The position numbers were made by a program, and so were the translations under genes. A stretch of DNA of 63,004 nt, counting the filler. It is 9 parts of 9 records of this genome, joined end to end, with 100 filler letters (N's around TTAATTAATTAA, not from the genome) between each part and the next. Parts side by side here need not be neighbours in the genome. Positions count along the whole stretch, not along the records: positions 29,083 to 39,928 come from SRR7504441_6110; 8 more parts are not named here. One strand, 5' to 3'. This document shows positions 4,344 through 59,221 of this stretch, one piece after another. Numbering within the stretch: position 1 is the stretch's first letter; each line of letters starts with the position of its first letter. Below the pieces are notes generated by a model that saw only the letters and a program-made list of their open reading frames with translations, made no database searches and was not told the origin of the DNA.

Positions 4344-7170
4344 TTAGCAATACTCTATCGAGCCTTTGACCAGCTTTGCTAGTGCAGTGCGCATCTTGAT
4401 TCGGTGTGGAGGGACAACTCCAAGATGGTCTGCGAGCAATTTCTCGCAGTCTATGAACTCAACACCCTTGGAGACCGCCTCAGCTGGATTGCGACCGTGT
4501 ATAGCATGTAGCTCAAGTGCCCGTGCAGCCCATTCACGGGTAACGCGTCTCTGCCAAACATTGCTCACAATTGGCTGCACAGGCAATTTACTTTGCTTTG
4601 GTGCATCAATTGCATCAGTGGCCCGATCGAGTCAACTCGCCACTGATACCCAGGACAGTTCCTCCATGGTGGGTACGTTCACAAGTGTCGCATTCTCTTC
4701 TACTTTACCATGCACGCCCAAGGCAGCAAACACCTCATCGCACATCCCAAACCTCTGTAGCAGATCTGGCTCACTCATTCGCTGCAGGACCCCAGCAAGC
4801 ACATAAGCATCAGGGTCAACCTGAACACCCTCCACCGGTGATGGGGTGCATTTCCCTGTCCAGAGCAACCAGAGCACGGCTGCCACGCTGTATAAATCCG
4901 ACCCAAAACAACCAGCACCGCCGGCACTAATCTCTGGCGACCGATAGGGATCTGTCGCCGTTGCAGGGTCCAAACTTGAGCTGATCTGGCTGCTCTCAAT
5001 GTGCCGGAGTAAATTCTCCTGGAATCCATCACTGGTCGAGCTGATCACCTGCATGCGTGAGCAGACACATTTGAACTTCATGCATTCGTGGCACAGCTGG
5101 GCGCCTTGCTGACACCTTTGCTTGGACTTAAGCAAATTGCTTTGGGCTGTGGCCAACTGAGTAGCCAGGTCGTCATAGTGGGCTTGAGCGTCATGGACCT
5201 GCTCGTTGGCTACAGATGCCTCGTTGTGCGACTGCTCGGCTATCTCTATCATCGCCTCAAGTTTTGATACTCTAGACTCGAGGGTCAGACGTTGCTCATC
5301 GATGCTTGTTTCGATGGAAGGTTGTTTTGTTCGCGGTGGCTGCGGGAATTGCAACTTTGTGATACCATGGCTCAGGGAGGGGGTGTCAGTGATCAGCTGC
5401 ACTCTGTGAACTGCAAATGCGGGCATCCTGTGCACCCTGCAGCCCCCAAAGTCAGCTGCTACCCTGCGTGAACTGGCGACCTATCGGAGCATGCGCCGCA
5501 CAGAAATACCTTACCGCAATCAGGGCAATACTTCACAGCTGCATCCCCACAGTTGGCGCAGAGCTTGCCAAAGGCAGTCGGTGGTCCCCGTGCCCCGACA
5601 TCCAGAAGATAAAAGCCCACTGTAGGTGTGTACAGCACTGTGGCTGGCGAGATGGCACCATGGACTATCCTATTTGAATGCAGCCTGTCCAGGACTGACA
5701 GTAGATCGATCAGTCCCTCCCGCGTCTGCTTTGCAGTCCAAAGCTTCTGCGGTTCGGCCAGCCGCTTCTCCTCTTCGGGGTCTCTGATCCTAAGCCTACA
5801 GAGTGCAGGCACTTCGTAGACTCTGAACCAATGGCCATGAACTGACAGTTCATCCTCATGCCCGGGCTCAAGCGAAGTTAAGACAAAGTGGTGCTGGGCC
5901 AGGCTTCCGGCCTCAACCATGCTCTGCACCTGAGCGTACTTGAATGGCCCTTCGGCCTGCCAGAAAAGCTCATCACAGACTTCAAAACACAGGAATCACC
6001 GCACTGGTTGGCCCGCTCGCCCCTCTCGGCACTGTCAGCAGATAGGTCGACAGGGATCCGTCCCCAGGCTCTGCCCCAGGCGAGGGCAACAACTCAGCTG
6101 ATAGGGCTTTACCAACCCTGGAAGCAATCGCAGCACATGACACGGCTTCTAGTTGGTCTAAGACCAGCACAGCGAGCCGACGATCCCAGAATCGCACCGC
6201 TGGGGTCCTCTTACCGGCTAACACGCCTAAGCACGCTGCCTCATAAGCCAACTTGTCCCTCTCACTCAGGCTAGTTAATAGTTGGGTCTTGTGCTCTCGT
6301 GGCCGCTTAAGTATGCAAAAAGGACTATCTGGTTGCAACAGGTCGATTGCCTTGTAGGTACCACCACCCCACGGGGCTCTGCCAACCCAAAGCGGATCGT
6401 ATGGCGTGAGCCGCTCGACAGCCACAAATCGGGCAGCAAGCACCAACAGCTGAGCACAGCCTGGGCGGCTGCACACTGGGTTGCTCTGAAGCGTGGTCTG
6501 ACTCAGATCGGGCACTAGTGTCATTGCTCCACAACTGGTGCAGCAGGCCTGCGGGCTGCTACTCAGGAAGTGCGCCACCGCAGCAAACCCCTGCGCATCC
6601 CAGGTGAGTCCTGGCCACACACGGCCCGCCTGCGCGCAGTCTGCCAGTGTCGGGCTGACCATGCCAGTTTCCGTGACTAGAAGCTCTTGCAACTGACCCT
6701 GCCGCTCAGCTCCTACCAGCCCTGGCAGGGACCGCTAGCTTGCCCAGCTCAGGTGGCAGCCTGCTCAGCTGCGGATTTCGATTTAGAAAGAGCCGCCTGA
6801 GCGCTCGGCACCTACCCAGCTCGGGCGGGAGCCCCGAGAGCTGGTTTGAGGCCAGGTTGAGCTCCGCCAGGCAGCTGAGTAGCCCAAGCTCGCGCGGCAG
6901 CCTAATCAGTCGGTTCTTGCTGAGAATCAACTGCTCTAGCCGCTGCAGGTGCCCGATTTCGCCCGGCAGGCCGGACAGGTGGTTGTCCATTAGGTCGAGC
7001 CGTCGCAAGCAGACTAGCCGTGCCACCTCCCGTGGGACATGCGTGATGCCAGCCTGGCGCCGGCTGATCCGCTCTGTCAGGATCGGCCGGCGTGGGTCCT
7101 CCCGGCACTTTCGCTGCAGGTAGATCCGGCCGGTCTGGGCCTGGTCCCGACCTACCGGTAGGTCGTTCAT
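4344..7170 (-). CDS. LRR / Zn-ribbon / pseudokinase / B-box / coiled-coil / SAM-like protein, multi-exon
   Basis: LRRs (LxxLxLxxNxLxxLPxE) 6730-7050. Kinase N-lobe GGGTYKAIDLLQPDSPFCILK. C-lobe LDRLHSNRIVHGAISP...LLDVGA, then YRSPE...SDLYSVAAVLWLLWTG. B-box completed by splicing a 44-nt GT-AG intron. SAM-like tail LADHLGVVPPHRIKMRTAL. Confidence 0.75.
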
Positions 7171-8551: not shown

Positions 8552-9251
8552 ATGGCTGATCCAGGAGAGCTCAATGGTCGGTTGCGGGCTGGTTGGGGTG
8601 AACACCATTCTGCAAGGCACCAGGGCTCAGGAGACCACGCGAGATGGGGGCGCGAGCCGTGCGCGGGCACGCCGAAAGGGGCAGGCCGCGGGCGGCCAGG
8701 AGCGGGGTGGGCAGTCCGGCCGCCGGCGAGAACTCTAGATCTCGTCGGGAAAGGGGCACAAGGACGGTGAGGACATGCATGTCCTCAGCCAAGCGGCCTT
8801 GAATCGGCGTCGGCACGGGACCGGGCCAGAAGGTCAGGGGGAGAGCATGGCCAGCGAGTGCGCCCAGGGCGGCTCGACCTCCACTCCATCTGGCCAAGCG
8901 AGGTCCGCGCCGCATCATCCGCCATTGAGGGCAGCTTTGCCTGGGCGCCGGCGAAGAGGGAAGTGCGACGGATCAGCCCTTTAGGCCTCGGCCAGTCTCA
9001 GGCGAGCCGCGGGACAAGGCGTGCCACAGGTGGAGGGTGGAGGGCTCACATGTTGTGTCAGGCAAATCAAGCCACCCCGCGAACTCGCACACGGCGGTGT
9101 CCCAACTGACTTTCTTTCCGCAATGTCCAACGGAAGGAATGATGCCGGCCGGAGGCGCTCCAGGACCCGACCAATGGTGCCAGATTTCCTGATTCAACTT
9201 GTATATGGGGATACAGATTCTACTCTTAGATGGCGATGTACAGGGATTTAA
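8552..9251 (+). CDS. Possible small multi-exon gene of unknown function
   Basis: ATG follows an AT-rich patch. Intron-sized GT..AAG and GC..CAG segments link open frames ending at TAA 9251. No recognisable domain. Confidence 0.3.
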
Positions 9252-9502
9252 TTACGTGTGAGTACTTAGTATTGGGGGCGGCTATGCCGGGGCATTGACA
9301 CAGACGTGATGCCCAGCGGCAGCGGGCGCACAATCATACAGCATGCGCGGCCGCGCGGCCTACGGGCGTACGGGCGGTCGAGGATGCCGCGAAATCCGGG
9401 CGCGCTGTTCTGTCGCTTTCCGGGATTCCGGGAATGGCAGAGTGCACAATTGTTCAGATTCAAATGCCCATATCATTTCCGATACATTTCCGACGGATCG
9501 GA

Positions 9503-14837: not shown

Positions 14838-17794
14838 CTAACACCGGCTTAGCATCTCCACGCCGTTTGCCCAAATGCTTTCGCAGGCGTTGGCAGCGTC
14901 GGTCTTCTTTGCCCGCACTAGTTCCATCGCCTCCATTCCGGTGTTTGCAAAAGCTGCCTTCGCCAAGGCTGCTTGGCCAACTCCGTAATTAATTGCCTTG
15001 ATAAAGCTCCTCAGAGACAAGGAAACTTGGCAGCGGACCTTATATATATATGGACCAGTCGAGGCTGCGGTGGACTGGCCTGTTCTCTCATTTGAAGCTT
15101 CGAGCACCTGCCATCTGTCGGCCCCACCAGCCGCTGAACTAAGGTCAAGCTGATTACCTCCGCGATGCGGATCTCGATTGAGTGATCGGCGTGCGCTATC
15201 CACACCTGAAGTTCGGGTCAATCTCAAACAGAGCTGCATTTGCCTGTAGGAGTGCTGCATGCGAATTGACCACACAGCACATCGTAGTCACTGCGCTGGG
15301 GCCACAGAATTGCCGAATGGCAGCATGTGTACTAGCATCGTATGCAACCACGCTTCCGTCCTTGTGCCCTGCCCAAACCTTGGCAAGACTCAGTTTAAAT
15401 CAACCAGGGAGCTGCACCTGGGAGCCCGCTTGCACCAGTGCCCTCACTGAGCTTTGAGCATGGCTAACCTGCAGATTGGGCATTTGATGTCAAATCAATC
15501 TAGAGTCACACCGTAGCTCGCTCTTGAGAGGCTTCGCGTATTGCCAGAATCGAACCATCGTTACAGCCAACCCAAATCTCTTGCGTTGACGAAACGCTGC
15601 CGTTTCGTGAGTGACGGGTGGGGAGGTGACTCACGAGGTAATCGCCTCCGTGTGGCTGGCCAGCGCGACGGACGAAAGGGGCGGGATCATGCACAGCCCT
15701 TCAGCAGGCCCGTTCTGCAGCGAAAGGCTCTCTATTGCAGCATCTGCGGAACTTGCTGAGTACGTAAGAACTCCCTCTGCGCAAAACTGCTCAGCCGCAG
15801 ACCTGAAGGCCAGTGGGCACCCAGTGTTGCGAGCCAAAGATTTCCGAGCGAACCTGCGCATCCGCCTTGCCATTGCCATTTCCCTTTGGAGGCTAGCATC
15901 GCTCCAAGCACAGGATCGCTGTCACAGCCATCCTGTGGTCGGTACCACAGAGTGCAACTGCCTTCTTCACAACCAACTGCGACCAGGCTGCGTCCATCCA
16001 GTCAGTCAAGTGGCTCGGATGCTCAACTTACTCGCCCCAGGCGCAGATCATCCGCACCGAAGCCCTCAGCGAGCTCGACCAGTCCCAGGCCCCGGTCTGA
16101 AGCGGGGCGATGAAAGCACCAGTGGCGTTGTACCGATGGACCACCATTCCGTTTCCGCCAACCCACACCTGGGCCCAGCTGCCCAGCTAGCCAGGCTTGC
16201 CAGCACCTCGGGGTGGACCAGCGCCATCGCTCTGATCTGCCACTCATGTGACGGCGCCCCAGCACCGATTGGCGAGTCAGGCAGCCCTGGCCCAATCTCA
16301 CGCCCAGCTAACGGACTAGCTCGCCTGCGGAGCACGTGTACACGGAGCCAACCGAGTCGATCAGCCGGAGCGGCTGATCAGCACAGCTCGACCATACGTC
16401 TTGCCCGCTTACACACAAACGTATGCTGTCCGAGGCCACGCCTGCCAGGTATTCCAACGATAGCCCTAAACATTGCATCACCTGCAGAGCAGTGGTGCCG
16501 CATGGTGGCCATTGGTTGCAGCCGAGCCCCCCAGAACAGATCAGCCGGGCCAACCGCTTGCCGGCGGTGGAATGCACGGCTGGCCATCAGGTCCACTGCT
16601 CGCGTCGCGCCAATCTGATTAAACGCAGCGTCGGTGATTGTCCTATGATCGGTGGTGGCAGCTGTCTGCTCCACCACGGAGATGAGTGCATGAGGATCGC
16701 TGCACTCCAAAAGAGCATCCCCCGCCAGCACAAACAGCGCCAGCACAAACCGGGTGAGCATCTCGGGGCCGAGCAGCAGCATCGCGTCCCAGATCCGGAG
16801 CACGAGCGCCCCGGGGGATAGGCTGGTCGCACAGTGCTGCAGCCACGAGCACCTACCCAACCGGCTCACGCCAATCAACCAGCTGACACACAGCGTCGGC
16901 GCCAGCACCTCGGACCGCCACACCCCGGCCTGGACCAGCCGGGTTGCGAGCTGATGCTGCGGCCAGCTAGTGAGGCCTGCGGCTCAAGGCAGGCACCGGC
17001 AGTTTTGTGAGGATCTGATCAACCAGCATCTCGGCCTCGCACTGAGCGGCTCGGCCGGACGAGAACACTTGCCCGAACCAGTCCTCGCACACCAGGCAGA
17101 GCAGCCAGTAGCTGGCGGCCTCGTTCATCGAAGTGGCCTCCAGAATCAGCCTTGCGATCGAGGTGATTTGAGCCGCGAGAGCGTGCAGCTTCGGATGGCC
17201 TGACCCTCTCATGGGACCCGGCACACCCAACCGCTACCGCACGAGAACACATGCAGCACCGACCGGAGCGCCCTCAGCTTGCCTTCCGCCAGCGCCGGGT
17301 TGGCGCTCTTCCAACCTGCCCCGACTGACCTGCGCGGCCCAACCGACAGGTAGGGTACCCTCGGTTTGGGCATCTATCGCCGCGTCAAACTCGAGTGCCA
17401 GCGACGAGGCCCCCGTGGCGAGGTACCCGCGCACTGCATCGTAGCTCATTCCGGCCCGCTGCTCCTTGTCTGCAGCCTTCGAGAGCTGGAGCCACACTGC
17501 GCTCCGGAGCTCCCGCGGACACCCGCCTTCGAGCAGCAGCTGGCGCAGCCGGACCGGGCTGGCCAGCTCGGAATCCGCCAGCAGCGCCTTCCATTCCTCG
17601 AACGCGCTCTGCTCCGGCGGGCTGCCGCACTCGTCCCGGGCCTTCTCGGCGTTCATCACCGAGAGCAGCTCGCGCTCGAGCGCCATCCGCTCCGGCTTGG
17701 AGAGCGACCGGCGGGGCCGGGGCTGGTCCGACCCCGCGTGCTCGCTGCTCCCGAGGTCCACCGTGCTCAGCTCCTCCGACGACGCCTCCAGCAT
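14838..17794 (-). CDS. TBC-domain (Rab-GAP) protein with a long C-terminal region, multi-exon
   Basis: LRQLLLEGGCPRELRSAVWLQLS, MNEAASYWLLCLVCE, LVLRIWDAMLLLGPEMLTRFVLALF. WD40-like EIWVGCNDGSI. The 3' exon structure is uncertain. Confidence 0.75.
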
Positions 17795-19133: not shown

Positions 19134-21278
19134 CTATCCTCCGTCCTCTCGTATAGTTGGGTCGCCTCGGGCTGCGACTTCGTCTAGATCGCAATGGTGC
19201 ACCCTAATTGCACCAAGCATTCTCTCTGGCAACTCATCCTGATTCGGCCAGGCTCAGCACGTGAGATACAGGGCGCCACTCACTTCTCGCTTGCCCTCTA
19301 GCACGAACCCCATGTCGACCACAAGCTCTTTGGCCGCTCCCTTGCACATGGACATTATCTGGCCCACCCAGCTCGCAGCCAGCAGCCTGGTTGGCATACC
19401 TTGCCAGCCACTACGTTCGAGCAGACGTCGATGTCCACCTCAGTGTAGCCATCGCCGTGAAAGTGCCGCATCTCCAGCTTGGACCCCAGGATGGCCGGCG
19501 TGCTCCCGACCTGCGCCCACTCAGCCAGCCCACACCAATGGCTAACCCTAACCCTAACCCTAAGGCCCACACGAATGGCTACCGCCCGCCGGACCAGCCA
19601 GGGGCCCTCGATGATCCGTGGGATGAACTTGAGTCTCGACTGCCGAAACTTGCTGTTGGTCGGGCGCATGAAATGATCGAGCATCTTGCCAAACACGCCC
19701 ATCGGCTCCGTATCCGCCAGCTCAAAGTATATCGCAAAGCTATACCTACCCAGGCCGTCCCAACCAGCCAGGCTCGCTCATACCCGGGCACCATCCAGCT
19801 GAGCACGAACATCCTGCCAGCCGGCTCGCCCCGCCGGCGCTGGTTCCGGCGCCATTTCTGCGGATCGCTGGTCACAGGCTCGAGATTAGGCAGACCTGGA
19901 AGACGGAGCCCGGCCACTGGGCGATGTTGGGCTTGGGGTCCTGGCAGGCGAACAAGTCGACCCCGACCACGCGGCAGAAAGAGTCGGCAGACGGCTGCTT
20001 GATCCTGTGCGACAGATAGCCCGGGCTCCGCACTTGGAACTCGCTCCCCGGCAGCTCAGACCAGACGTTCCGGCCATGGCCCGAGCTACTCAGCGGATAG
20101 CAGCCCCGCTCGTCTTCTATGGGGCCCTCCGGCACAGGCGTACTTGGGGACTCGGGCAGTGCACCCAACAGCTGGGCATCCTCACCGACCGGCGACTCGA
20201 TCAGTGGGCTGGGGGTCCTCTCTAGCTGGTCGCTGGGCGGGGCCAGGTTGAGCAGCGACCAGACCTGTCCTGTCCGGTCCGGGCCGCCCAACCCTAAAGT
20301 GGCACCTGCTCGGGCGAGTCAAAGAACCTGAGCCGGTCAGCCAGCGAAGGTGCCTGCTGCGATACCTGGCCCACCGGTGATCAGCTGGGGGACCTGGGCA
20401 GCCGGCGCCTTGAGCTTGAGGAAGGTGTTCCAGTGGAACCCGCCGCCGACCACAGCGAGCAGCGACAGGCTGTTCAGGTACCTCGGCGCGAGCACCAGAC
20501 CAGCCGCCATCAGCCAGTCTGCGCTCACTTGCGGGCCTCTCTCCCCGAGCAGCAGCACCGCCGAGTAGAGCTGGTCGGTCAGGTGCGCCGTGCTCTTGAT
20601 CAAGTAGAGCAGCGCCCGATCCAGCCAGCCGGCCGCGCACCGCTCCACGCTCTCGGCTCTGAGCACGATCACCGGCATCCCGTCCACAGTGCTCCCCAGC
20701 TGCACTAGCCCGCTCTGCGCCATCTCCGGCAGCTCCTGCGTCCGCGCCAGGTACCAGAACCGACCAGCCACCACCTCCGGCCCGAGCTCGGCCGCGTCTG
20801 CCACCGAGAACTGCAGGTCGGCCGCCAGCTGCTCCCAGCCCGGGTACCGGAGGCAGCACCGGGCGCAGAGCGAGTCCTCGATCTGGTCGGTCATCCGGGC
20901 CCCGGCCTCGTCGCACCGGCGGCAGGGCACCACGCAGTTGTTGCACGAGGCGCACTGGTACACGTTCCGCCCGACGGTTTTGCTCTGGAGCAGCCGCTGG
21001 GTGGAGAACAGGAAGCACCAGGAGCACCAGGCGGTCCGGGTGAGCAGCCCAGTCACCTGGATAGGGTGGCAACGCAGGCAGAGCGTGTCAACCGCGTTCG
21101 AGTACTTCTGATGGGCCCGGGCCATCGCGTTGCACGAGATCATCATGCAGCGGGTGGTCATGCTGTGGCAGTTTGTGCAGCTGTAAAGGTTGCGCGACAG
21201 GGTGCGCTCCTGCACCAGGGTGTGCCTGGCAGGCTGCAGACACCAGCTGCACCAGGCCTCCTCCTCAACGATCGCCAT
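19134..21278 (-). CDS. Protein with two WCSWC Cys-rich repeats, a CRAL-TRIO/BCH-like domain and an EDR2 C-terminal (DUF1336) domain
   Basis: DUF1336 motifs FQVRSPGYLSHRIK, RLKFIPRIIEGPWLVRRAVGSTPAILG, YTEVDIDV, LVVDMGFVLEG, ELPERMLGAIR. BCH-like GSTVDGMPVIVL...APRYLNSL. Exons join in frame through intron-sized segments. Confidence 0.8.
19542..19563 (-). repeat. Interstitial telomeric repeat (TTAGGG)3+ inside a 72-nt intron
   Basis: ctaaccctaaccctaaccctaa within intron 19511-19582. Confidence 0.9.
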
Positions 21279-22341: not shown

Positions 22342-24186
22342 ATGGCTGCGAGTGACGAGGCGGTGCGGGCTGACCGGGGGGCCGGTGGTGAGCGACGGGG
22401 GCAGATGACCCGCTTCCTCGAGGCCAATCGGATCAGCATGGGCCAGGCCGACCAGTCCGCCCGCCGTCTCCGGTCGGCATCTCTCCAGTTTGGCGGTGGG
22501 CCCCGGGGCTGGCCGCCGCTCAGCCGGGCCCAGGCAAGCTTGTGGTGTCGGGCGAGTCGACGGTGCCGGCGCTGACCGAGCAGGAGGCGATGACCGCGGT
22601 GCTCCGCAACACCGAGTTCCCCACCGGGACCGAGCCCGGCGGCCGCGAGTGGCTGGCCGGGGTGGGGCACGACCGCGAGACCACCCTGATGGAGGTGGCC
22701 AAGCAGGTGCCGCCCGGGGGGGGGCGGCGGCCAGCGGGCGGCCAGACCGTGTCGGAGCTCGACTGCCGGATCCTCAAGCCCAGCTCCGTGGCCGCGATCG
22801 AACAAGCAGGCGCCGAGCTCAAGGCCCAGGTGCTCGGCCGGCCCCGGCCCGCTCTGAGCCGGGGCCAGCTACACATGCGCGAGACGGCGGTGGCGGACGG
22901 CGAGGCGGCGTGCGAGGCGATCCAGCGGCACACGGGGGCGATGCGGCTGGCGGGCAAGAGCGCGGAGGTTCAGCGTGTCGAGCTCGAGAAAGATATTGTG
23001 GAGTGGCACCTCAAGGAGAGCGAGCAGAGTGAAGGCAAGACCCGGCGCTGGCTCGAGAGCGCCCTGACCAAGGCGCCCCGCCCGGCCGGCCTGGGCGAGC
23101 CTGCGGGCAGTGCGAGAGCACGATTGCGACTCAGGGAGAAGAACTCGAGAGGCTGCGCGCACTGCACAGGGCTGAGACCACCGAGCTCGAGAGCCGGCTG
23201 AGCGTGGCCCGGACCGAGCTGGCCTCGACCGTCCAGTCTAACGAGCTGATGGAGGCCGAATGCGCCAAGACATGCCGGCGTCTCCGGTGGGCTGCCGGCT
23301 GCTGGCTGGGCTGACAGGCCGGCAGAGAGGAGGTGTCTGAGCAAAAGTACGGCAAGGAGAGCGCGCAGGCCGAGCTGGCGCAGGCGCAGGCGGCCAACCA
23401 GCTGATGCGGGAGGAGCTGGAGGCGACCAAGCAGCGACTGGACAGCAAGGTGGCGGAGACCGATGAGCTGGTCGCTCTCAGGCTCGAGGCAATCGAGGAT
23501 GCGGCCAACACACGGAATGCGATGGCCGACGCTGTGCTCGAGAAGCAGCGCGAGAAAGTGGCCCGGTGCGAGCAAGTGCAGCTAGACAAGGTCCGGTCCG
23601 AGTGCAACCTGCGACAAGAGCTGGCGAGCGCGAGGAAGACGAACGCGCGGCTGCAGGAGGAGAAAGTGGAGGCGATCACGCGGATGGCCATGGCCAACAA
23701 GGAGTCCACCGGCTGCATCGAGCGGCTCACCCAGATCACCGATCAGAACACGGAGCTCCGTCAGACGATTGCAGGCCTGGAGGTGAGAGGGTCTGGCTGG
23801 TCCTGTGCGAGCTCGGGGCCAGGCCGAGGTCAACCGGCTGGACGCGGACAACTGCCGGCTCTCCAAGGAGCTCAGGTGCCCTGGCTGTCGGCCTGGCTGA
23901 GCGCGGGGCAGCGTGGCGTCCGATGACGTGCTCAACCTGCGGTGCGAGTACGGCTCGACCAAGCGGCGGTGGGAGCAGGCCCAGCGGGAGGTGGAGGCGC
24001 TCAAGGCCACCCAGCACGAGCCGGCCGACTACAGGCTGTACGCCCCCCCATATAAATACGCGGCCGACTCGCTGCCGGCACCGCACATGCAGCCGATCGT
24101 CGATGTTGCAGCCGGCCGACTCGTTGCCGGCACCGCACATGTTTGATCCCAGTCAATTTTTCCAGCAAACAACATCGTTCAATTAA
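22342..24186 (+). CDS. Coiled-coil protein of unknown function, multi-exon
   Basis: Heptad-rich exons (22542-, 23333-, 23913-) separated by about 40-nt GT-AG segments. Confidence 0.7.
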
Positions 24187-29082: not shown

Positions 29083-29485
29083 CCTGTATCTCGATCTCAA
29101 ACTGGGCAGCTGGAGATCGGCAGTCGGCGAGGGCCGCCCCCTGAGCCGAGATCCCGAGGCAGAGCGGCGCATCGAGCAGCTGGCGCGTGGCCAGCCGGCT
29201 GCCCTGGACCGCCCAATATTGGTTTGCCCGCAGGCGCATTGGGCCCGATCCACAGGGCTGCAGCGTCACCGGGCTCCCAGCCGGGGCGCGGTAGGCACCT
29301 CCACCGCTGATCTGCAGGCAGAGGCCCAGGGTCGAGGCCACAGCGGCCGGGCTTACAAATGGCGGGACTGTTTTGAGGCTGAAGGTCTGGTTGTCGGCGC
29401 CAGCGGAGCACGGGGCGAGTGCCAACTGAGGACCAGCTGAGACGACCGTACAGCACAGGGCGAACACCGCGACGGCGACCTTCAT
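29083..29485 (-). CDS. Secreted protein with a ricin-B (beta-trefoil) lectin domain, 3'-truncated
   Basis: Signal MKVAVAVFALCCTVVSA. Motifs GLCLQI, VTLQPC...NQYW, LCLGI. Confidence 0.75.
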
Positions 29486-29505: not shown

Positions 29506-29521
29506 TCCGTTATATAACGGA
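29506..29521. promoter_or_regulatory. Perfect 16-bp palindrome with TATA core in a divergent promoter
   Basis: TCCGTTATATAACGGA between ATGs at 29485(-) and 29577(+). Confidence 0.5.
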
Positions 29522-29576
29522 TGTTGAGCACCCGACACTCGACCAAGACGGCATCATACCCGTGCACCTATTGAGC

Positions 29577-32260
29577 ATGCTGCTGCTCCTCCTCCTCGGC
29601 GGGGTAGTCAGTCTGGGCAAGGCCGGCAGCATCTGCTCGGGCGAGTTCGCGCGGCAGAAATGGTGCGACCCGGCAGCCCCACTCGAGCAGCGGGTCGAGG
29701 ACATGATCAGCCGGATGAGCCTGCCGGACAAAATCGCCGCGCTGGCTTCGAGCAACAACGCCGCCCCCTCTCTCGGGCTGCCCAGCTACAACTGGCGCTC
29801 GGAGGCCAACAACGGACTCGACTACTTCGACTCGCACAACCCACTCACCCCGCACTCGACCAAGACGGCATACCCGTGCACCACATCCATGGCGTTCAAC
29901 CGGAGCCTTGTGCGGGCGCTCGGGGCTCAGCTCGGAGCCGAGGCGCGGGCCATGGCCAACGTGGGCAGCGCCGCCGGGACCTGGTGGCACCCGGTGATCA
30001 ACCTGGCCAGGGACCCCCGCTGGGGCCGCAACTACGAGACCCCGGGCGAGGAGTGCGCCGCCCGGGGCCGGCCAGGCACTAAGCGGTGCGGTCAGCCCGT
30101 ACGTTTCGGGCGAGTATGCGGCCGCGTTCGTGCAAGGATTCCAGGAGTCGCCAGTGGATCCCGGGCACCTGCAGGCCTCAGCATGCTGCAAGGTGGGCCA
30201 GCAATCGCCCTAGCGGTGTGAATGCGAGTTGTGGGTGTGCAGCATTACGATGCAAACTCTATGGAGAGTACCACAGAGGCCGGGGTCACGTTTACCAGGC
30301 ACGACTTTAATGCCAACGTGACGATCCAGGACCTAGTCGACAGCTATTTGCCCGCCTTCCAGAGCTGTGTAGAGAAGGGCCGGGTGTCGGGGTTGATGTG
30401 CAGCTAGTCAGTCTCTGCTTGTCACGCTGGTCAGCTGACCGGCCGTGTGTGCAGCAACGCTATCAATGGAGTGCACTCGTGCGCCAACAGCTGGTTGCTC
30501 AAAACTGTGGCTCGCCAGGCCTGGGGCTTTGACGGATACATTACTGCTGACTGTGATGCTGACGGAGACTCGTACAACAGCCACATGGAGACTCCCGAGG
30601 AAGCGGTCCGAAATGTCCTGAGGGCTGGCACGGAGTGAGTCTCTTTGATGATGCTGTCAGCTGAGTAGCTTTGGGTGGTTGCAGCAATGATTGCGGGACC
30701 TTTGTGAGCCGACACGCCCTCTCCGCGCTCAACAAGAGTGTGATTACAGTCGATGACATCGATCAGAGGCTAGCGATGATGTTCAGGGTGCGCATGCGCT
30801 TGCTGCACTTTGATCCGCCGACAACCAGTGCTCTGCAAAAGATTCCAACCTCTGTGATTTGCTCCGACTACGCCAAGGCGCTGACAAAAGATGCTGTAAC
30901 CCAGGCCGTTGCGCTGATCAAGAACAGCGATCGCACACTGCCGTTGAATCCGGACGCTAACCGAACACTGGCGATAATCGGCCCCAATGCCAATCTAACG
31001 AGCACTTGCCAGGCAGGAGGTGGACCTGGTGGGAACGAAAACTGCTATGGCGGCGCATGCGACGATTACTTCCCGTCTCTCGTAGATGCACTGCAACAGT
31101 ATGCGCCGAAAATCGAGTGGGCCCAGGGCTGCGAGCAAGGGCTGCCAGAAGGCTGGGGGCAACCCAATGCAACGCAGGACGCCATCTACACCGCCGCTGC
31201 AGTCGAACTGGCCGCACGGGTCGATACGGTAGTGTTGGCTGTTGGCACAAACCTATCAATGGCCCACGAGTCGCACGATGCCACCTCGTTGGCCCTCCCA
31301 GCTGGCCAGCTGGCCCTGATTGCGGCAGTGACTGCTGTTGCCAAGAGCCCAGTGGTTGCTGTGACGCTCACAGGCGTTCCGCTCGACCTATCGCCGCTGC
31401 TCAACAATCCCATGGTCGGTGCTGTCATGCACGCAGGGCAGCCGGCGGTGCAAACACTCGGCATAGGCGACTTGCTGTTTGGCAAGCGCTCGCCGGCTGG
31501 TCGAGTGACCTCGACCATGTATCCAGCCAGCCTTGCGGGCCAGCTCTCGATCTTTGATATGAACATGAGGCCGGGGCCATCAGCATTCCCTAGGCCAGAC
31601 TGCAACTGCAGCACGCATTGCTGTGGAACCCAGTGCCTGTGCCGCAACACAACGGGCGAGCCCATGCGATATTGTCAGTGCGGCTCTACTGGGTGCAACA
31701 TCAAGCCACTGTCACCGCTCCCTCCGTGTCCACGAGGAGCCAATCCTGGTCGTACGCACCGATTCTTCACCGGCACGCCTGTGGTTCCCTTCGGGTTCGG
31801 CCTCAGCTTCTCCACATTCTCATACGCGATCGCCTCGCATCCGCAAGGTATCGTGTCTCTTGATGCAGTGCGCCAACTCCTATCCGATACAACCACGCGC
31901 CAACAGTTCCCCCCGATGAGTGCGGCTCGCCACCCTGCAGCAGTGCCAGCCAGCTATGTCGTCAACGTGACAAACACTGGCAGCATGGACGCCGATGATG
32001 TGGTCCTCGGGTTCCTCAAGCCGCCAGGAGCCGGAATCAACGGCGTGGCGCTGCAGACATTGTTTGGGTACGAACGTGTGCACGTCAGGGCAGGCGACAG
32101 CGTGTTGGTCACTTTATATCCGTCGATGACCGACTTCACCCATGTCGGGTTGAGTGGAGAGCGCTCAGCTTTGGTCGGCGAGTACACGGTCCAGTTTGGG
32201 TTAGCTGAGACGCGTGAGCTTGGCCAAGGGTTTGCTGAACATAAGATGATAGCGAAATGA
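29577..32260 (+). CDS. Secreted GH3 beta-xylosidase-like glycosidase, 4 introns
   Basis: [47 protein letters not shown] (nucleophile Asp), [11 protein letters not shown], FnIII-like tail. Confidence 0.95.
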
Positions 32261-32352: not shown

Positions 32353-33486
32353 TTAATCTGTAACCTCGACTGTCTTTTCCACTTGGTCCATAAGGTCTTG
32401 ATACCCATCGTCAGTTGGCTTACGCGAAAACAGCTGCACACCAGTCAGCAGTCAGAGTACTCGACAGGCCTGTTTGGGGGTAGAAATGACAAATGCTATG
32501 AAACTCAGTGGTCACCTTAAGCAGCTCAGATCTTATCGCTCGCGGGTAGGCGTAAACAAACGTATCAAACAGGCCGTGCAGCGCAGTGCATGCCCCACAG
32601 GCTACCACCAGCCAAGATCTCGGCGGCGCATTGGGTGAGCCTAACTCTTCACAGCGCATCACGGTGGCCGCGGTTCCAGATATAACAAGAACCAGAGGGA
32701 AACCTAACAGATGAAGCAACAATCTGGAAGATTTTCTCGAGTCGGCGTCCTCCGGGCCCCTGGTACGTGCCACCAGCCGGCGCAGCTGCACGGCCAGGAT
32801 CGAGCACACCACTGAGTTATAAATGACCGCAACCCAGAGCGGCACATAGTACTGGGCCATCCGGAGTACCTGCGCAGGCCAATCTGACTGACCAGACCGG
32901 CTCCCAGGCCGAATCCAGCACCATCCATCGGCCTTGCCGTAGTAGCCCTGCAACCGGGCTCGCCCAGCTGGCCGCGCGCACGGTGCACCGGCGGAATGGC
33001 GATCGGTAGCGCCGCCATCAGCGCCGCAGTGCCCCAGATGGCGGCGTGAAGCAGCCAGGGCCGGTTGGCGCGCACGCCGTGCCCCATGTCGGTGATGCAC
33101 AGGTCCAACGCATACTCAACGTCGATCAGCGCGCTCTCCTGCCGTTCGAGCTGCTGCACCCGCCTGAAGGTGCTGTGCACAGCCGCGGCGATCGCCACCG
33201 ACCACAGGATGCCAGCCAGCTCGAAGAAGGAGAGCAGGATGGCCTGGGTGGCGCAGAGCGCCGGGTCGTATGGGCTACCGATTATGGCGCCCACGCCCGA
33301 GAAGAAGTCGGAGATGGCCAGGTTGAGCACCAGCTGCGCAAACCAGCCGAATCGGCGGTGCGTCAGCCCCACGCCACAGATGATCAGCAGCGCCCCGGCC
33401 ATCGACAGCCCAGCGCACACCCGCCGGGCCATCTCCACCTGGGCCACCTCCGGGATGTACGAGCCACCACTGGCCCAGGGCCGCAT
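32353..33486 (-). CDS. 7TM GPCR, GCR1/cAMP-receptor-like
   Basis: LVLNLAISDF, LCATQAILLSFFELAGILWSVAIA, YGKADGWCWI, YYVPLW, LHGLFDTFVYA. Exact stop uncertain. Confidence 0.88.
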
Positions 33487-33712
33487 CGCTGGCGCGTCTC
33501 AGAGCCCTGCGCTGCTGTTCGGTCCTCAGTGCCTCACTGTGCTGCAGCTGTGGCGGCCAGATTTCAGTTGAGCGGTTGCTGGCCGTTGAGCCGGCTGCTT
33601 GCTGCGGGCTGGAGCAGCTGCGTTCGAGGTGGTGCGCGGGCAGGGGTTGGGGGCTCTCCTACAGTGAGTGCTTGCTGCTCATCGGCTCCTGAAAGCGCAG
33701 CAGTGAGCGGAG

Positions 33713-36700
33713 ATGCTCGAGTCCCAGCTGGCCGGGCTGCTCGAGCAGCTGCTCGACGATTGGTTCGAGGGAATCAGCAAAGAGGCGGTCAGCCTGTCGG
33801 TCTGGTCCGGCACCTGCGAGCTCGAAGGACTAAACCTCCGGCCTGGCCCGATCTGCGGGCTGGAGCAGCTGCCGTTCGAGGTGGTGCGCGGGCAGGTGGG
33901 CACGCTCCGCATTACCGCGGACTGGCGGGACCTGTGGTCGAGCAAGCCGGTCCGAATCGAGCTGGGGGACGTGTTCGTGTTGCTCCGACCGGCCGAGTGG
34001 CAACAGTTTGGCTGCCGGGCCCGGGCGGTCCGGCGCAAGATGTCGCAAGTAAACAAAGAGCTCTACCTGGAGCGGAAGGGGCTGGCGCGTGGGAAGATGC
34101 CACTGGCCGAGAACGCGGACAAGACCATCAGCCAGATGAGGGCCGAGCGTAAGGCTGAGAAGGAGCACAGCTGGGGCCGATGGCTGGCCGGCAAGGCGCT
34201 GGAGAAGGTGGAGCTGCGCGTGTCTAGCCTGCACGTTCGGCTGGAGGACCGTACAGTCTCGCCAGTGCCTGCCGCGGCCGGGCTGTTTCTGTCGGTGCTC
34301 GATGTGAGCTCCGAACGGCCTGACAGCGAGAGCGAGCAGCGGTTCTGCAAGAGGCTACTGGTCGAGGACTGCGGCGTCTACTGCGATTCGGATCAGGTCG
34401 AGTGGCTCGAGCCTCTCGAGTGGCTAAACGCGCCGGATCAGTTTGGTCAGAACATGGTCAGGCTGATGTCTCGCAATGCGAGAGAGCGGTTCGTGCTGCC
34501 GGCCTCGAGCATCGAGGGCTCATACAAGTACGAACCGGGCAGGCACCACCTGCAGGTGACCATGGAGCGGGTAGCGCTCTCTGCCAGGCGCGAGCAGCTG
34601 TGGGTGCTGCTGGCTCACCTCGAGAGGATCACGCTGTTTGAGCGATGGGCCAAATTCAGGGTATTTTGGGAAAGGGACCAGCGCCCGGCTAGTGGCGCCG
34701 AGTGGTGGCGTTACGCGAAAGCCTGCGCTCTCTCCGTGGTCAGGCAGGCGTCCGGGTCCCGGCTGGACCCGGCCTCGTTATCTCGGCGGCGGCGTTGCAG
34801 GCGGCAGTACACTCAGCTATACCAGGCGGCTAGGTTTAACGAAGATCGGAATGCGCAACGAGCGCTCGAAGCCCTGCAGCTCGAGCTGCCACTCCGTGAG
34901 ATCATGGCGTTCGAGTCGCTTGCATACCGCACTCTGCAGCGCAAGCTGCTGGCCGTGGACGACTACCAGTCGCAGTTGAACATTTTCGATCCGCGACGCC
35001 ATTTTGATGCGCTGCTGGCCCAGGATGTGACTGCTCTTGAGTTGAGCCCGGAGCAGGAGCGGCAAGTCCAGGCAATGATGGCCAGCGACTTGAGCGCGGT
35101 CGCCAACAGCCTTGGGGACGTGTTCCTTGTGGACGGCACGTGCGAGTTGGTTTCGGTTTCTCTGTACGACGTGGATGCCCAAGGCAAGCAGCACAGCTGG
35201 GCCCGTGCGGCGAGCTTTGAGCACAAGCTTCAGCTAGAATACGGCCCAGCCCGGTCGAGAATTGCCTATTCTGCCAATGGTGCCGAGGTGCTTCACTCCC
35301 CAAAGGTTGACTGTGGTGTGCCTTTGTTTGTGCTGTCCTGCAGTGGTCATAGTGAGGCAGAGCAGGCTTCATCAAGCTTTCAGCTCGAAATTGATGCTCC
35401 GAGCAGTATCCACAGTCAAGGCTCGCTAAGGTTCGTTGGTCACCAGCGGCTGTGTGTGACTCTGGATCAAGCATTTGTACGTAGGCTGATGGGTTTCCTG
35501 GACATCTCTCACCTAGACTTGCAGCTATTCGAAAGTGTAATGTATTCGGGTCTTCGCCAAGTACGACGATACACCACCCAACAGGCGCGCCGGATAGAAC
35601 GAGAGGCCCATTTTTGGAGTATCGACATCAGTTTCATGGCACCGCTGCTGGCCTTGCCCAGTGGATCCGGCTCAAGAGCCGAGGCATCGGCATCCGTGAA
35701 TCGCGCACCATCCATTGACGACCGCTGGTCTACTGACGCCGTCTCCCCACCAGATCGGCCCAGTCAATCTGGTCTGATACTTGATCTAGGCAAGTGCTGC
35801 TTCAAAAGCGAAAGCAAGGTCTTTGACCTCGAGACTAGCCCAAATGTTCATGAATGCGGGACTCAGAAGATTTACTGCATCATAGAAGGCGTTCGTGGGA
35901 TCGCCACCTCGACCGAATACCAGCATTGCTTCGGGTCGGAGTCTGCGCGTGCTGAGCATGAAGTTCTCCGACTGACATTACACGGTGAGGTCAAAAGAAC
36001 AGTGGTTAGCATTGTAGAGAGGGCTGATCTTGCTCTTGATTATGTGGCATCCGCGGCGTTTGTCACGCTGGACAAGGCCCAGTTCGAAACAATCTGTGCC
36101 ATTGCAGCTGAATTCATCGAATTGTATGAAGACTTGGAAGTGGCTTACAGGCGCAGCCTTTTGTGCAAGTATCCGTACAAGGGGCTCCATAGCGATAAGC
36201 TTTCGATTGATCTGCTCACTAGGGTCCACTCCAATCTTGAGGCCGCATCTCCGCAACTCGCGCCGAAGGAACTTGCAACATTGGTGACGTGCCAGCTTGG
36301 GATCGAGCATGCGGAGTTTGTGCTGCGAGGGGGGGTAGCTTCTAGCGACGTGCTACTCAAGTGTATGCTGAATGCTGGTTTGGAGATGAACAACTCAGAA
36401 CGAAAATGGGTGACTACGGCGACAATCTGGTCCTTAAAGGTTGTCAGCGGTGCATCAGTTGCACCGGCTTCAATTACCGGGTTTGAGCAGCCGATCGTGT
36501 CTTTTGAGAGCGGCTTGGACCAGCGTTGGTCTATTGACGCGATATCGCCTGCTGGATGCGATATTGTCTCAATAGATCAGCGCAGGCGCCTCCTCTCTCC
36601 AACAGCGTCACCTGTCACCTCGGCCTCCCGCGGGCCTTCGCTCTCTGCACGGATTGTTATGGCCTCGGATGTGAGGGTCTCGATTGTTGCAATAGGTCTA

Positions 36701-38609: not shown

Positions 38610-39824
38610 TCACTGTGGGTTTATCTCGACGTCCAAGTGAAAATTGAGGTGGTCCTTCACGCTCAGCCTAGTCGGTACTTTGTCTCGCGCAACGTTAGTT
38701 GGCTTCTCGGACTTACAACTGCGCCCACCCCGGTCAACCAACCTGCGATGCGGTGGGCGCACATCTCAAGCACTTGGTGCCCTTGCTTAATCTCTGCGAG
38801 CTCCATGAACGCATAGCACTTAGTGCTCACCTGCACCCTATCACGAGCGGCATCAAAGCATGTACCATCTTCTTGTCGGGCTTATAATGAGAAAACTCAA
38901 AAAAGATCGCGCAGCCGGATGTCTGGCATGTCTTTATAGGCTCGGCATGCCCTTGGAGCAGCTCCAGTGAGCTCTGGAGCACGATTGTATGGTCGAATAT
39001 AATATGCTGGGGCGAGTTCTGCTCTAGGCTGTGCTTCCCTTGAGGCGTCTCCATCGGCGGTTCGAGCAGAGTGCCGTTGCCGTCTGCAGCGCCGGAGTCA
39101 GCGCAACCGGCAGATTCAGCGGTGCACCCACGACACTGATCCTGATCTGGGGGTTGATGTAGCCTGCTGAATTGGCGTCTTTCATGCCAATCCTGTCAAT
39201 GTGTAAGCGCACTGCGGTGCCGTCCACTTCGATACGAGGAGCCGCAACCTCTGTCACTGCGTTCCCCTCCAAATCCATGTTCTGGATCTGCCCGCGCCGG
39301 TGAGCCCCCGCCGCCCGGCCCGGCCACCATCCCCGTGGCCTCTACCGAGTCCAACTCGGCCCTGCCGCCCGATCATCCCCCGCCGCCCGGCCTGGCAGGA
39401 CTGTATGGGCGCGGCGATCCCAGAATACACGCTCAGGTCCAGCGGGAATTCCATCTCAGGCACTGGCTCCCGGGTTACAGCCGCGAGCACTGACCCCGCG
39501 GTCCCGCCGCAGCCCGGTTCGCCTCACACCTGGCATCAGCGACCGTATCCTGTCGGCGGACGGCCCGGAGATCCCTCCGCGCACGGTAGCACTCCGCAGC
39601 TTGAGGCTGAGCACCAGGTTGCGAAGCAGTTTCTGGCCGGGCGTTCGGGGCTGGGCCGGGCCCGCGGGCGCCTGCTCGTGTGCCGGGAGCTGGGCGCGGT
39701 CAGAGTTCCACACGGCCCGAGCCAGCGCCTCGTACCCTTCGTCCGCCTCGATCACGTGGCCCCACTCGTCGTGCTCCAGCGCCTCCGCAAACTGGGTCTT
39801 CCAGCTCCGTCGGGTCGAAGCCAT
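38610..39824 (-). CDS. AIDA: Axin interactor, dorsalization-associated protein (AIDA-type C2), multi-exon
   Basis: DEWGHVIEADEGYEALA, LHIDRIGMKDA...YINPQIRISV, AIFFEFSHYKPDKK. Confidence 0.92.
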
Positions 39825-57936: not shown

Positions 57937-59057
57937 ATGAGCAAGCGTCCCAGGGTGCGTGGCGCGCTCCCATCACTGAGTGGCTGCAGCAGACCGGGGA
58001 GCTGGTGGAGGGGCCCGCAGCATTGGAGAGCCCGTAAGCCGGATTCGCCCGCTTCTCTGAGAGGTTGAGGGCAGGTCGGCGGCTCTCGAGGCGAAGGACA
58101 CTGAGATCGCCAGGCTGCGAGCGGAGCTCTTGCTGGCGGATGATCTGAAGAAACGGGAGCGAGCGCTGGTCATGCGGCTGTCAGGGAAAGAGCAGGAAAT
58201 AGCCGAGCTGCAGGTGGTGTGACCAGTCCGTAACTGAGGCATTCGGCTCGGCAGACTCGGGTGCAAGAGCTGATAGCGATGGCACGGCCACAGGCGGTGC
58301 AGCTGAATGAGACCATTCTAGACCCGGCTGTCAATCGGGAGTTCGAGCGGCTGCGTGCCGAGGTGCTGCCCAACTAGGCCAGGCCTTTGACAGCAGCCTG
58401 GATAGGCGACACAGACCAAGGAAGAGCTCCAGAAGTCGCAAGATGACGCGCAGGCTATCAAATTCACCCAGGAGAGGTGGCCACAAGCCCGCCGAGCGCT
58501 GCTGCGGCTGACTTCGGCGGCAGTCTGACCGGCAAGAGGCTGATGGCCAAGTGCAAGACTTTGCAGGAAGAGAACGAGGACTTTGCGCTGCAGGTGAGCT
58601 GCGTGAATTCAACGCCAGAATCGGCCCTCCTGCCCACAGCCTGAATCTGTATTCAACTAGGTCTCCGAAGGCAGGGTCAAGAAGCTCGAGCTCGAGATCT
58701 CCCTGAAAAAGCAGCACATTTCTGGCCTAAAGAAAGCCCTCCAAGGTAGTCACCTATCTGTGCGGCTTCTTGGTCAGGCTGCTTGGCTTGCTGCTTGGCT
58801 TGCTGCTTGGCTGGGGTATCTGGTGCGGCCTTTGCCCCGGTCTGATAGCTTTCGCATCGTCGGCTGAGGCTGCTGAGGCGGCACTGGGTCAGGGTCCGGA
58901 GCGCGGCCCTTGCTTGCAATCCCTTGTGTTGCTTGAATGACGAGTTGTGGGATTTGCAGAATCAAATGGGTACATCTCAATGCTAGATGAAGAAATGGAG
59001 AACATGCAGAATACCATCTTTTTCCTGCACCAAGAACTAGAAGAAGGGCTGTCTTAG
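57937..59057 (+). CDS. WTAP: WTAP/FIP37/Mum2 m6A-writer subunit, multi-exon
   Basis: RERALVMRLSGKEQEIAEL, ILDPAVNREFERLR, LMAKCKTLQEENE, SEGRVKKLELE, LDEEMENMQNTIFFL. Start uncertain. Confidence 0.9.
58778..58812. repeat. Tandem 12-mer (GCTGCTTGGCTT) x about 3 in a 214-nt WTAP intron
   Basis: Direct reading. Intron 58746-58959. Confidence 0.85.
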
Positions 59058-59221
59058 AGCTGTCTTAATTAAAGCTGTCTTAAAAGTTGTCTTAAAACTT
59101 GTTTATCTAAATGTCTATTGGATGCAATCACTAATGTATTCTTGGTATTGCGCAAACAGTATGAGAGTGCATACTTTATTGTACTTTGAAGCAGATCGGC
59201 CGGTTTAACCGTTAATTGATA

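What the first reader, a model, noticed from the sequence alone, without database searches (positions are those of the whole stretch)
29524..29882. GH3 leader carries a copy of its own CDS, flanked by a 7-bp direct repeat
Seen: 29536-29568 (cactcgaccaagacggca-tca-tacccgtgcacc) matches CDS 29853-29882 exactly except for a 3-nt insertion. The insert lies between two TTGAGCA copies (29524-30, 29571-77), and the second overlaps the ATG. Established: locally templated insertions with microhomology are a hallmark of Pol-theta / synthesis-dependent end joining. Inference: this is a repair scar that rewrites the 5' leader from a template about 320 nt downstream, possibly the gene's own nascent RNA.
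Basis: partly seen in the sequence, partly recalled or inferred. Interest (0 to 1): 0.72.

Follow-up and report, generated by a model that had tools for sequence, protein, structure and literature searches.

The report
Repair scar copying downstream coding DNA
A 47-base insertion just before the start of a sugar-cleaving enzyme gene in an uncultured marine protist contains a short copy of that gene's own coding DNA, and a second such copy lies 4 kb away; both are likely ordinary scars of DNA-break repair, and nothing found points to RNA as the template.

Summary
29531-29568 copies GH3 coding sequence 29849-29882 between two 7-nt repeats, or 9-nt repeats with one mismatch. A low-depth contig from another seawater run starts with the insert's last 9 bases, which weighs against an artefact but is not a full bridge. 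Both have the build x-z-filler-x-y-z with microhomology only at the x|z joint. The best reading is a DNA-templated scar of staggered-break repair. Its main rival gives the same sequence: a 230-310-nt tandem duplication that later lost its middle. The RNA idea has no support, because in a head-to-head gap any direct copy reads as 'own CDS, same strand', and neither donor spans an intron. Pol theta is unverified: the tract is longer and farther from the break than typical Pol-theta insertions, and no genome was held to look for POLQ. The scan has noted duplication-plus-filler scars many times on other DNA of this genome, and this window holds several more. New member of a known kind; interest 0.27.

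The parts
29084..29485 (-). 5' part of a divergent gene with a signal-peptide-like start and a weak ricin-type lectin match; runs off the contig end
   Evidence: PF00652 E 2e-5, 25.2 bits, below the curated cut-off of 29; signal peptide judged by eye
29506..29521 (.). 16-nt palindrome made of two back-to-back TAACGG words; candidate bidirectional promoter element
   Evidence: promoter role taken from earlier AI notes, not shown here
29521..29574 (+). 17-codon upstream ORF created by the insert; without the 47 nt this ATG would be in frame with the GH3 gene
   Evidence: whether this ATG is in the transcript is unknown
29522..29530 (+). x: first copy of the flanking repeat (7 nt exact from 29524, or 9 nt with one mismatch); ends in the 2-nt microhomology CA shared with the donor
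29531..29568 (+). z: 38-nt copy of GH3 coding sequence with a 3-nt doubling and one 1-nt shift
29569..29577 (+). x': TA plus the second 7-nt copy; last base is the A of the start codon
   Evidence: present at the start of a contig of run X1
29577..32260 (+). intact GH3 beta-xylosidase-like gene, 830 aa after four predicted GT-AG introns (30053-95, 30193-242, 30407-54, 30635-84; 43-50 nt)
   Evidence: introns predicted from the reading frame, not seen in RNA
29849..29882 (+). donor in GH3 exon 1; aligns without a gap to a conserved GH3 stretch, so this is the original
33546..33699 (.). 154-nt part of the second head-to-head gap; another wild allele has 105 other letters here
   Evidence: one contig of run X1, depth 2.7
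33596..33605 (+). second case, x: first copy of a 10-nt repeat; its last 4 nt (CTGC) overlap the start of the copy
33602..33644 (+). second case, z: 43-nt copy of VPS13 coding sequence, one base missing
33645..33668 (+). second case: 24 nt of filler with no clear source
33669..33678 (+). second case, x': second copy of the 10-nt repeat, inside a candidate 37-40-nt 5'-UTR intron (33664-33700/33703)
   Evidence: intron is a consensus match only
33853..33896 (+). donor of the second case, inside the VPS13 N-terminal coding region (gene starts 33713)
   Evidence: PF12624 E 4.8e-29

Best explanation
The GH3 leader holds a 38-base copy of its own coding DNA between two copies of a 7-9-base word, and this is likely the scar of one repair event at a staggered DNA break, in which a broken end would have paired through 2 bases with DNA about 315 bases downstream, copied a short tract inaccurately, and been joined back without homology. 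Shown: the build x-z-x-y-z, microhomology at x|z only, changes in the copy that are all or mostly indels, the same build at a second promoter, and related duplication-plus-filler scars in the window. Inferred: the break, the DNA template and the single step. Not resolved: whether the stagger was short (9 nt, far template) or long (314 nt, middle looped out during fill-in), and which polymerase acted. The scar likely survives because the downstream ATG and the whole GH3 frame stay intact; it only lengthens a 44-nt gap to 91 nt.
For: Both copies far exceed shuffles (scores 26 and 40; no direct hit of 18 or more in 15 shuffles). Both are bracketed by a direct repeat (chance 95 of 19,594 and 62 of 19,444). 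Both have microhomology at the x|z joint, CA and CTGC (chance 7.2% and 0.6%). The copies differ from their donors by indels: +3 and a 1-nt shift (also readable as two substitutions) at site 1, -1 at site 2. Other duplication-plus-filler scars lie in the same window: 17 nt plus telomere repeats at 19528, 29 nt at 24061, 18 nt at 39303, and 9-TA-9 at 9474, 19126, 56025. A contig of run X1 starts at 29562 with one differing letter in 323; an insertion-free allele would differ at 7 of its first 9. Direct-repeat insertions from priming across a break are described (PMC7165422, passages), as are non-tandem duplications from within 200 bp of a break in rice (PMC7407515 section 4.3).
Against: No insertion-free allele of site 1 was found (1 of 7 runs laid touches the site; none in JGI metagenomes), so the pre-insertion state is inferred. 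The X1 support is 9 bases at a contig end, under the tool's 31-base bridging rule, and the left junction is not covered. Tract length (38, 43 nt) and distance (317, 251 nt) exceed typical Pol-theta insertions. A 2-nt microhomology is weak. At site 2 the other allele differs over the whole 154 nt, so the simple x-z-filler-x history there is not confirmed. The identical product from duplication plus later deletion cannot be excluded.
Confidence: 0.6

Rival explanations
1. Two steps: a tandem duplication of the gene's 5' end (314 nt at GH3, 228 nt plus 24 nt of filler at VPS13), then a microhomology-guided deletion of the middle of the first copy. The deletion would be favoured because it removes the upstream start codon that blocks the intact second copy.
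For: It gives exactly x-z-x-y-z. It makes the flanking repeat, the direct orientation and the downstream donor automatic. Filler sits at z|x, where other scars of this window have it. In both cases the missing middle holds the first copy's ATG, and at site 1 the joint falls after its A. An intact duplication would stop the reading after 103 and 68 codons.
Against: No intact duplication of 200-350 nt was seen in 63 kb; the other duplications listed are 29 nt or shorter. It needs two rare events at each of two neighbouring loci and a probably null intermediate. The similar z lengths (38, 43 nt) are not explained: z could be up to about 165 nt at site 1 without an ATG.
Confidence: 0.2
2. The break came from excision of an unseen transposon of the kind proposed for this genome's 9-TA-9 scars, and the gap was filled with copied DNA before the TA.
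For: The right repeat is preceded by TA (dinucleotide frequency 2.6%), and 5 of 9 short repeats with a 2-nt spacer in the window have TA. Filler of 1-123 bp after excision is described in rice (PMC4423477, passages).
Against: The exact repeat is 7 nt, not 9. The TA can equally be a 9-nt repeat with one transition. No element or terminal repeat is present. Site 2 has a 10-nt repeat and 24 nt of filler.
Confidence: 0.08
3. An assembly or whole-genome-amplification chimera.
For: The assembly is fragmented and its source is unknown. Amplification chimeras prime at 2-21-nt complementarity (PMC1855051, abstract and Results). No read or contig spans the left junction. The site-2 copy is not seen in the one other allele.
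Against: A contig from another run with about 0.8% differences (10 of 1,266 letters) carries the right junction. Short-range direct chimeras were 11 of 475 in that study, and this structure needs two jumps. Indels inside the copy are not expected from an assembler.
Confidence: 0.06
4. The copy was reverse-transcribed from the gene's own nascent or mature RNA during repair.
For: Both copies are sense and come from exon 1 of the adjacent gene. Microhomology at the left joint only is compatible with right-to-left synthesis on a sense template, since re-annealing microhomologies tend to be the longer ones (57% vs 16% over 1 bp). RNA-templated repair is reported in human cells (PMC12065846, PMC11390984; search listing only).
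Against: In a head-to-head gap every direct copy from either side reads as own-gene sense; 2 of 2 direct has p = 0.25. Neither donor spans an intron and there is no poly(A). A sense DNA strand (long overhang, sister chromatid) explains the same joint, so the joints do not identify the template.
Confidence: 0.05
5. A selected regulatory element: an upstream ORF encoding a copy of the enzyme's own peptide, or an antisense tag on the divergent transcript.
For: The ATG at 29521 opens a 17-codon ORF in the donor's frame that stops 2 nt before the main ATG.
Against: Site 2 has no ATG in its leader. The ATG at 29521 overlaps the candidate promoter word and may lie upstream of the transcript start. 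The copy is young, and site 2 is polymorphic. The frame match has about 1 in 3 odds.
Confidence: 0.01

Closest known systems
[quoted passage not shown]
   Same: Direct copy of flanking DNA, short (2-nt) microhomology at one joint, error-prone copy.
   Different: Tract 38-43 nt (there rarely over 10), donor 251-317 nt away (there within 50 bp), a target duplication instead of a deletion; POLQ not checked.
Plant filler DNA and non-tandem duplications at breaks (rice, as summarised in PMC7407515 section 4.3; PMC4423477 and PMC10923293, passages). The primary rice paper was not held.
   Same: Natural insertions of tens of bases made of partial duplications and nearby donor sequence; attributed to asymmetric nicks and end joining.
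   Different: Donors there are within about 200 bp; here a little farther, and in a protist.
Daphnia pulex insertions and neointrons from staggered double-strand breaks (PMC4202315, passages)
   Same: Insert flanked by a 4-12-bp direct repeat of the target.
   Different: This insert lies in a leader, cannot be removed exactly by GT-AG splicing, and its filler has a traceable source.
Tandem duplications from fill-in of 3' overhangs by CST-Pol alpha-primase (PMC8355091, passages)
   Same: Paired nicks give duplications; fill-in starts at the tip of the overhang, which would fit z being the far end of a long unit.
   Different: Overhangs tested there were 43-49 nt; a 230-310-nt unit with a looped-out middle is my extrapolation.

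Membership tests
Pol-theta templated insertion (TINS) | Insert of 5 bp or more repeats flanking DNA directly or inverted | tested here: met
   38 nt direct copy
Pol-theta templated insertion (TINS) | Template within about 50 bp of the break; first tract rarely over 10 nt | tested here: not met
   317 and 251 nt away, 38 and 43 nt long against PMC7165422
Pol-theta templated insertion (TINS) | Microhomology at priming or re-annealing joints | tested here: inconclusive
   2 nt and 4 nt at the left joint, none at the right
Pol-theta templated insertion (TINS) | Depends on POLQ | not testable with these tools
   no genome held; earlier notes gave nothing on POLQ
Staggered-break insertion (duplication plus filler) | Direct repeat of the target at both ends of the insert | tested here: met
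   7/7 or 8/9 nt at site 1, 10/10 at site 2; chance 0.3-0.8% each
Staggered-break insertion (duplication plus filler) | Empty allele with one copy of the repeat | tested here: inconclusive
   none found for site 1; the site-2 allele lacks the copy but differs over the whole stretch
Neointron born from an insertion | Insert removable by GT/GC-AG splicing | tested here: not met
   the scan for 34-60-nt GT..YAG introns found none on the plus strand at site 1; three minus-strand matches cover at most 8 nt of the copy. RNA contigs did not reach the leader
RNA-templated insertion | Copy skips an intron or carries poly(A) | tested here: inconclusive
   donor 1 ends 171 nt before intron 1; donor 2 lies in an uninterrupted ORF; no poly(A)
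9-TA-9 excision-like scar of this genome | Exact 9-nt duplication separated by TA only | tested here: not met
   7 exact bases and 38 extra nt before the TA; related build possible
Amplification chimera | Absent from independent unamplified DNA | tested here: not met
   right junction present at a contig end in run X1; weak, 9 bases; library type of X1 not on record

The most novel reading that the evidence does not exclude
In this telonemid-like protist, the break-repair process that seeds new 40-50-nt introns also reaches 250-320 nt into the downstream gene for template, possibly its transcript, and so keeps rewriting tiny bidirectional promoters: strains 99% alike in coding DNA carry wholly different promoter cores. 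That would make it a natural system for watching long-range templated repair, intron birth and promoter turnover come from one mechanism.
Probability: 0.15. Interest if true: 0.62.

Novelty: new member of a known kind. Interest (0 to 1): 0.27.

Why it matters
Alone it is one mutation. With the second case and the many related scars it suggests that this lineage has unusually active insertion-prone break repair, acting even inside 44-230-nt bidirectional promoters. The traceable donor shows where filler comes from, which bears on how new introns get their sequence. It would matter much more if a genome-wide survey found intron-skipping copies, which would be natural evidence for RNA-templated repair outside animals and yeast.

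Tried and rejected
Whole-genome survey and POLQ search: not possible, no genome held. Protein atlas for taxonomy: no answer twice. JGI metagenome scans: 595 candidate stretches, none a GH3 relative; 391 candidates, 2 distant VPS13 relatives of no use for the leader. Viral contigs: 0 matches to the 19-nt repeat. VPS13 homology search: none at E 0.001 among 6,078 candidates. Of 20 runs listed, 7 were laid; 6 of 7 show no contig at site 1 in the listed tables (6 pieces were not shown); uncovered parts prove nothing. The two RNA runs cover only the last GH3 exon, so they say nothing about the leader or splicing. Using the side of the microhomology to tell the synthesised strand: rejected, since it can be the priming or the re-annealing joint. 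Precise removal of the 47 nt as an intron: no suitable ends. A patchwork origin for the rest of the site-2 stretch: only 7-10-nt matches within 1.2 kb, with no null computed. Weaker self-matches (score 12-17) exceed the shuffles (direct, score 12 or more: 69 vs mean 28), but many lie in repetitive coding sequence and were not pursued. Literature searches listed no paper on such insertions in telonemids; this rests on listings only.

Full report
Setting. The window is nine contigs joined by linkers. It is a eukaryote with about 60% GC and short GT-AG introns. The serine hydroxymethyltransferase on the neighbouring contig is 77% identical to a Telonema subtile protein, against about 62-68% for the named green algae, haptophytes, fungi and plants listed. 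The organism is therefore likely a telonemid; this rests on one gene of another contig. No whole genome was held. The finding lies in a 91-nt gap between two head-to-head genes: a lectin-like gene starting at 29485 on the minus strand and a GH3 gene starting at 29577. The GH3 gene reads through to 830 aa after four predicted introns of 43-50 nt and matches solved beta-xylosidases (E 2.8e-16).

Observation. Confirmed as written. The copy extends to the whole 38 nt between the flanking repeats, 29531-29568, with donor 29849-29882. It differs from the donor by a doubling of CAT and by a 1-nt shift that can also be read as two substitutions. The donor aligns without a gap to a conserved stretch in 8 of the 10 homologues found, the 8 that I aligned, so the coding copy is the original. 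In a self-comparison of all nine contigs, only two repeats at 30-2,000 nt spacing score 18 or more; 15 local shuffles gave no direct hit at that level. The flanking repeat is 7 of 7, or 8 of 9, with chance rates of 95 and 163 in 19,594.

A second case. It too is bracketed by a direct repeat, of 10 nt (62 in 19,444 by chance). Both sites read x-z-filler-x-y-z. The end of x overlaps the start of the donor by 2 nt (CA) and 4 nt (CTGC); chance rates are 7.2% and 0.6%. There is no overlap at the other joint, which holds TA at site 1 and 24 nt of unknown source at site 2.

Is it real? Twenty runs were listed, none holding over 17% of the words; seven were laid. One, X1, has a 323-nt contig from 29562 to 29884 with a single differing letter. 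An insertion-free allele would differ at 7 of its first 9 letters, so X1 carries the right junction. X1 differs from the window at 10 of 1,266 aligned letters, so it is not the same haplotype. This is 9 bases at a contig end at depth 3, below the tool's 31-base bridging rule, and the left junction is uncovered. At site 2, an X1 contig aligns to 33476-33545 and 33700-33771 with 105 other letters between, and no piece of it was placed on the copy. The copy is thus apparently absent from that allele, which differs throughout. Short-range direct chimeras were 11 of 475 in a single-cell amplification study (PMC1855051, abstract and Results). I put the artefact at 0.06.

Context. The window holds other duplication-plus-filler scars: 17 nt around three telomere repeats (19528), 29 nt around 23 nt (24061), 18 nt around 54 nt (39303), and 9-TA-9 at 9474, 19126 and 56025. 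TA is the spacer in 5 of 9 such short repeats although it makes up 2.6% of dinucleotides. Earlier unchecked notes of this scan report many scars of this class elsewhere in the genome, several as candidate new introns. They gave me the leads on 9-TA-9 and on the AACGG promoter word; they are not counted as evidence.

Mechanism. Most likely one repair event at a staggered break, with a DNA template. Priming of one end on the other resected end gives a direct-repeat insertion (PMC7165422, passages). The case differs from typical Pol-theta insertions, where first tracts are rarely over 10 nt and templates lie within 50 bp. It is closer to natural insertions in rice, described as partial or non-tandem duplications from within 200 bp of a break (PMC7407515 section 4.3; the primary paper was not held), and to the repeat-flanked inserts of Daphnia (PMC4202315, passages). 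Indel-rich copying recalls Pol theta, which adds bases in runs at over 1% in some contexts (PMC2441791, abstract), but two to four changes in 81 nt is above that, and later mutation may contribute. The same sequence results if a 314-nt (or 228-nt) unit was duplicated and the first copy lost its middle, either during fill-in of a long overhang (extrapolated from PMC8355091, passages) or later under selection. In both cases the lost middle holds the first ATG, and an intact duplication would stop translation after 103 or 68 codons. One sequence cannot separate these routes. I give 0.6 to the single event and 0.2 to two steps.

RNA template. In a head-to-head gap a direct copy from either side reads as 'own gene, same strand', so orientation carries no information beyond direct versus inverted (2 of 2). 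Neither donor crosses an intron. The one point in favour is that a left-only microhomology fits right-to-left synthesis on a sense template, if it is the re-annealing joint, but a sense DNA strand serves equally. RNA-templated repair papers were seen as a search listing only. Probability 0.05.

Consequence. The insert lengthens the gap from 44 to 91 nt and moves the nearer AACGG word from 14 to 61 nt before the GH3 ATG. It also puts the ATG at 29521, which would otherwise be in frame, on a 17-codon ORF ending just before the main ATG. No plus-strand intron of the usual kind covers it. Two RNA runs hold contigs of the last GH3 exon only, and DNA in those libraries is not excluded. Any effect on expression is untested.

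Verdict. A real, young, locally templated insertion, one of a class common in this genome and known from plants and animals. The long reach, the second case and the fully different promoter allele in another strain are the only points above routine. No supplements were read; those of the cited papers may hold longer-range examples. Interest 0.27.

Noticed in passing
window 33602-33644 / 33853-33896: Second CDS-to-leader copy (VPS13, 43 of 44 nt) with a 10-nt flanking repeat; stronger than the finding itself.
   Followed up: yes
window 33546-33699: A wild allele about 99% identical in the flanks has 105 different letters in place of this 154-nt bidirectional promoter core. Its first letters repeat 33516-33525, suggesting a 15-nt duplication of which the window keeps only part.
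   Followed up: partly
window 19528-19581: 17-nt duplication (one mismatch) around three telomere repeats, apparently inside a predicted 72-nt intron of a minus-strand gene.
   Followed up: partly
window 9474, 19126, 56025 (9-TA-9); 18830, 56399 (8-TA-8): Uniform short duplications separated by TA.
   Followed up: partly
window 24061-24141 and 39303-39396: 29-nt and 18-20-nt duplications around 23 and 54 nt of filler with no local source found.
   Followed up: partly
window 59048-59102: Iterated, decaying copies of a short AT-rich word, like repeated rounds of slippage synthesis.
   Followed up: no
window 9345-9433: Three separate 8-nt tandem duplications within 90 nt, followed by a 9-TA-9 at 9474.
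   Followed up: no
window 8768-8787, 7148-7165, 15909-15937, 36523-36583: Perfect palindromes of 20 and 18 nt and two imperfect hairpins; the last lies inside the VPS13 ORF.
   Followed up: no
window 33489-33537 (-) and 33664-33703 (+): Candidate 5'-UTR introns (49 and 37-40 nt) on either side of the second promoter; the plus-strand one lies in the polymorphic stretch.
   Followed up: no
window 29577-29660: The closest GH3 homologue and three others carry an N-terminal WSC domain that this gene lacks.
   Followed up: no
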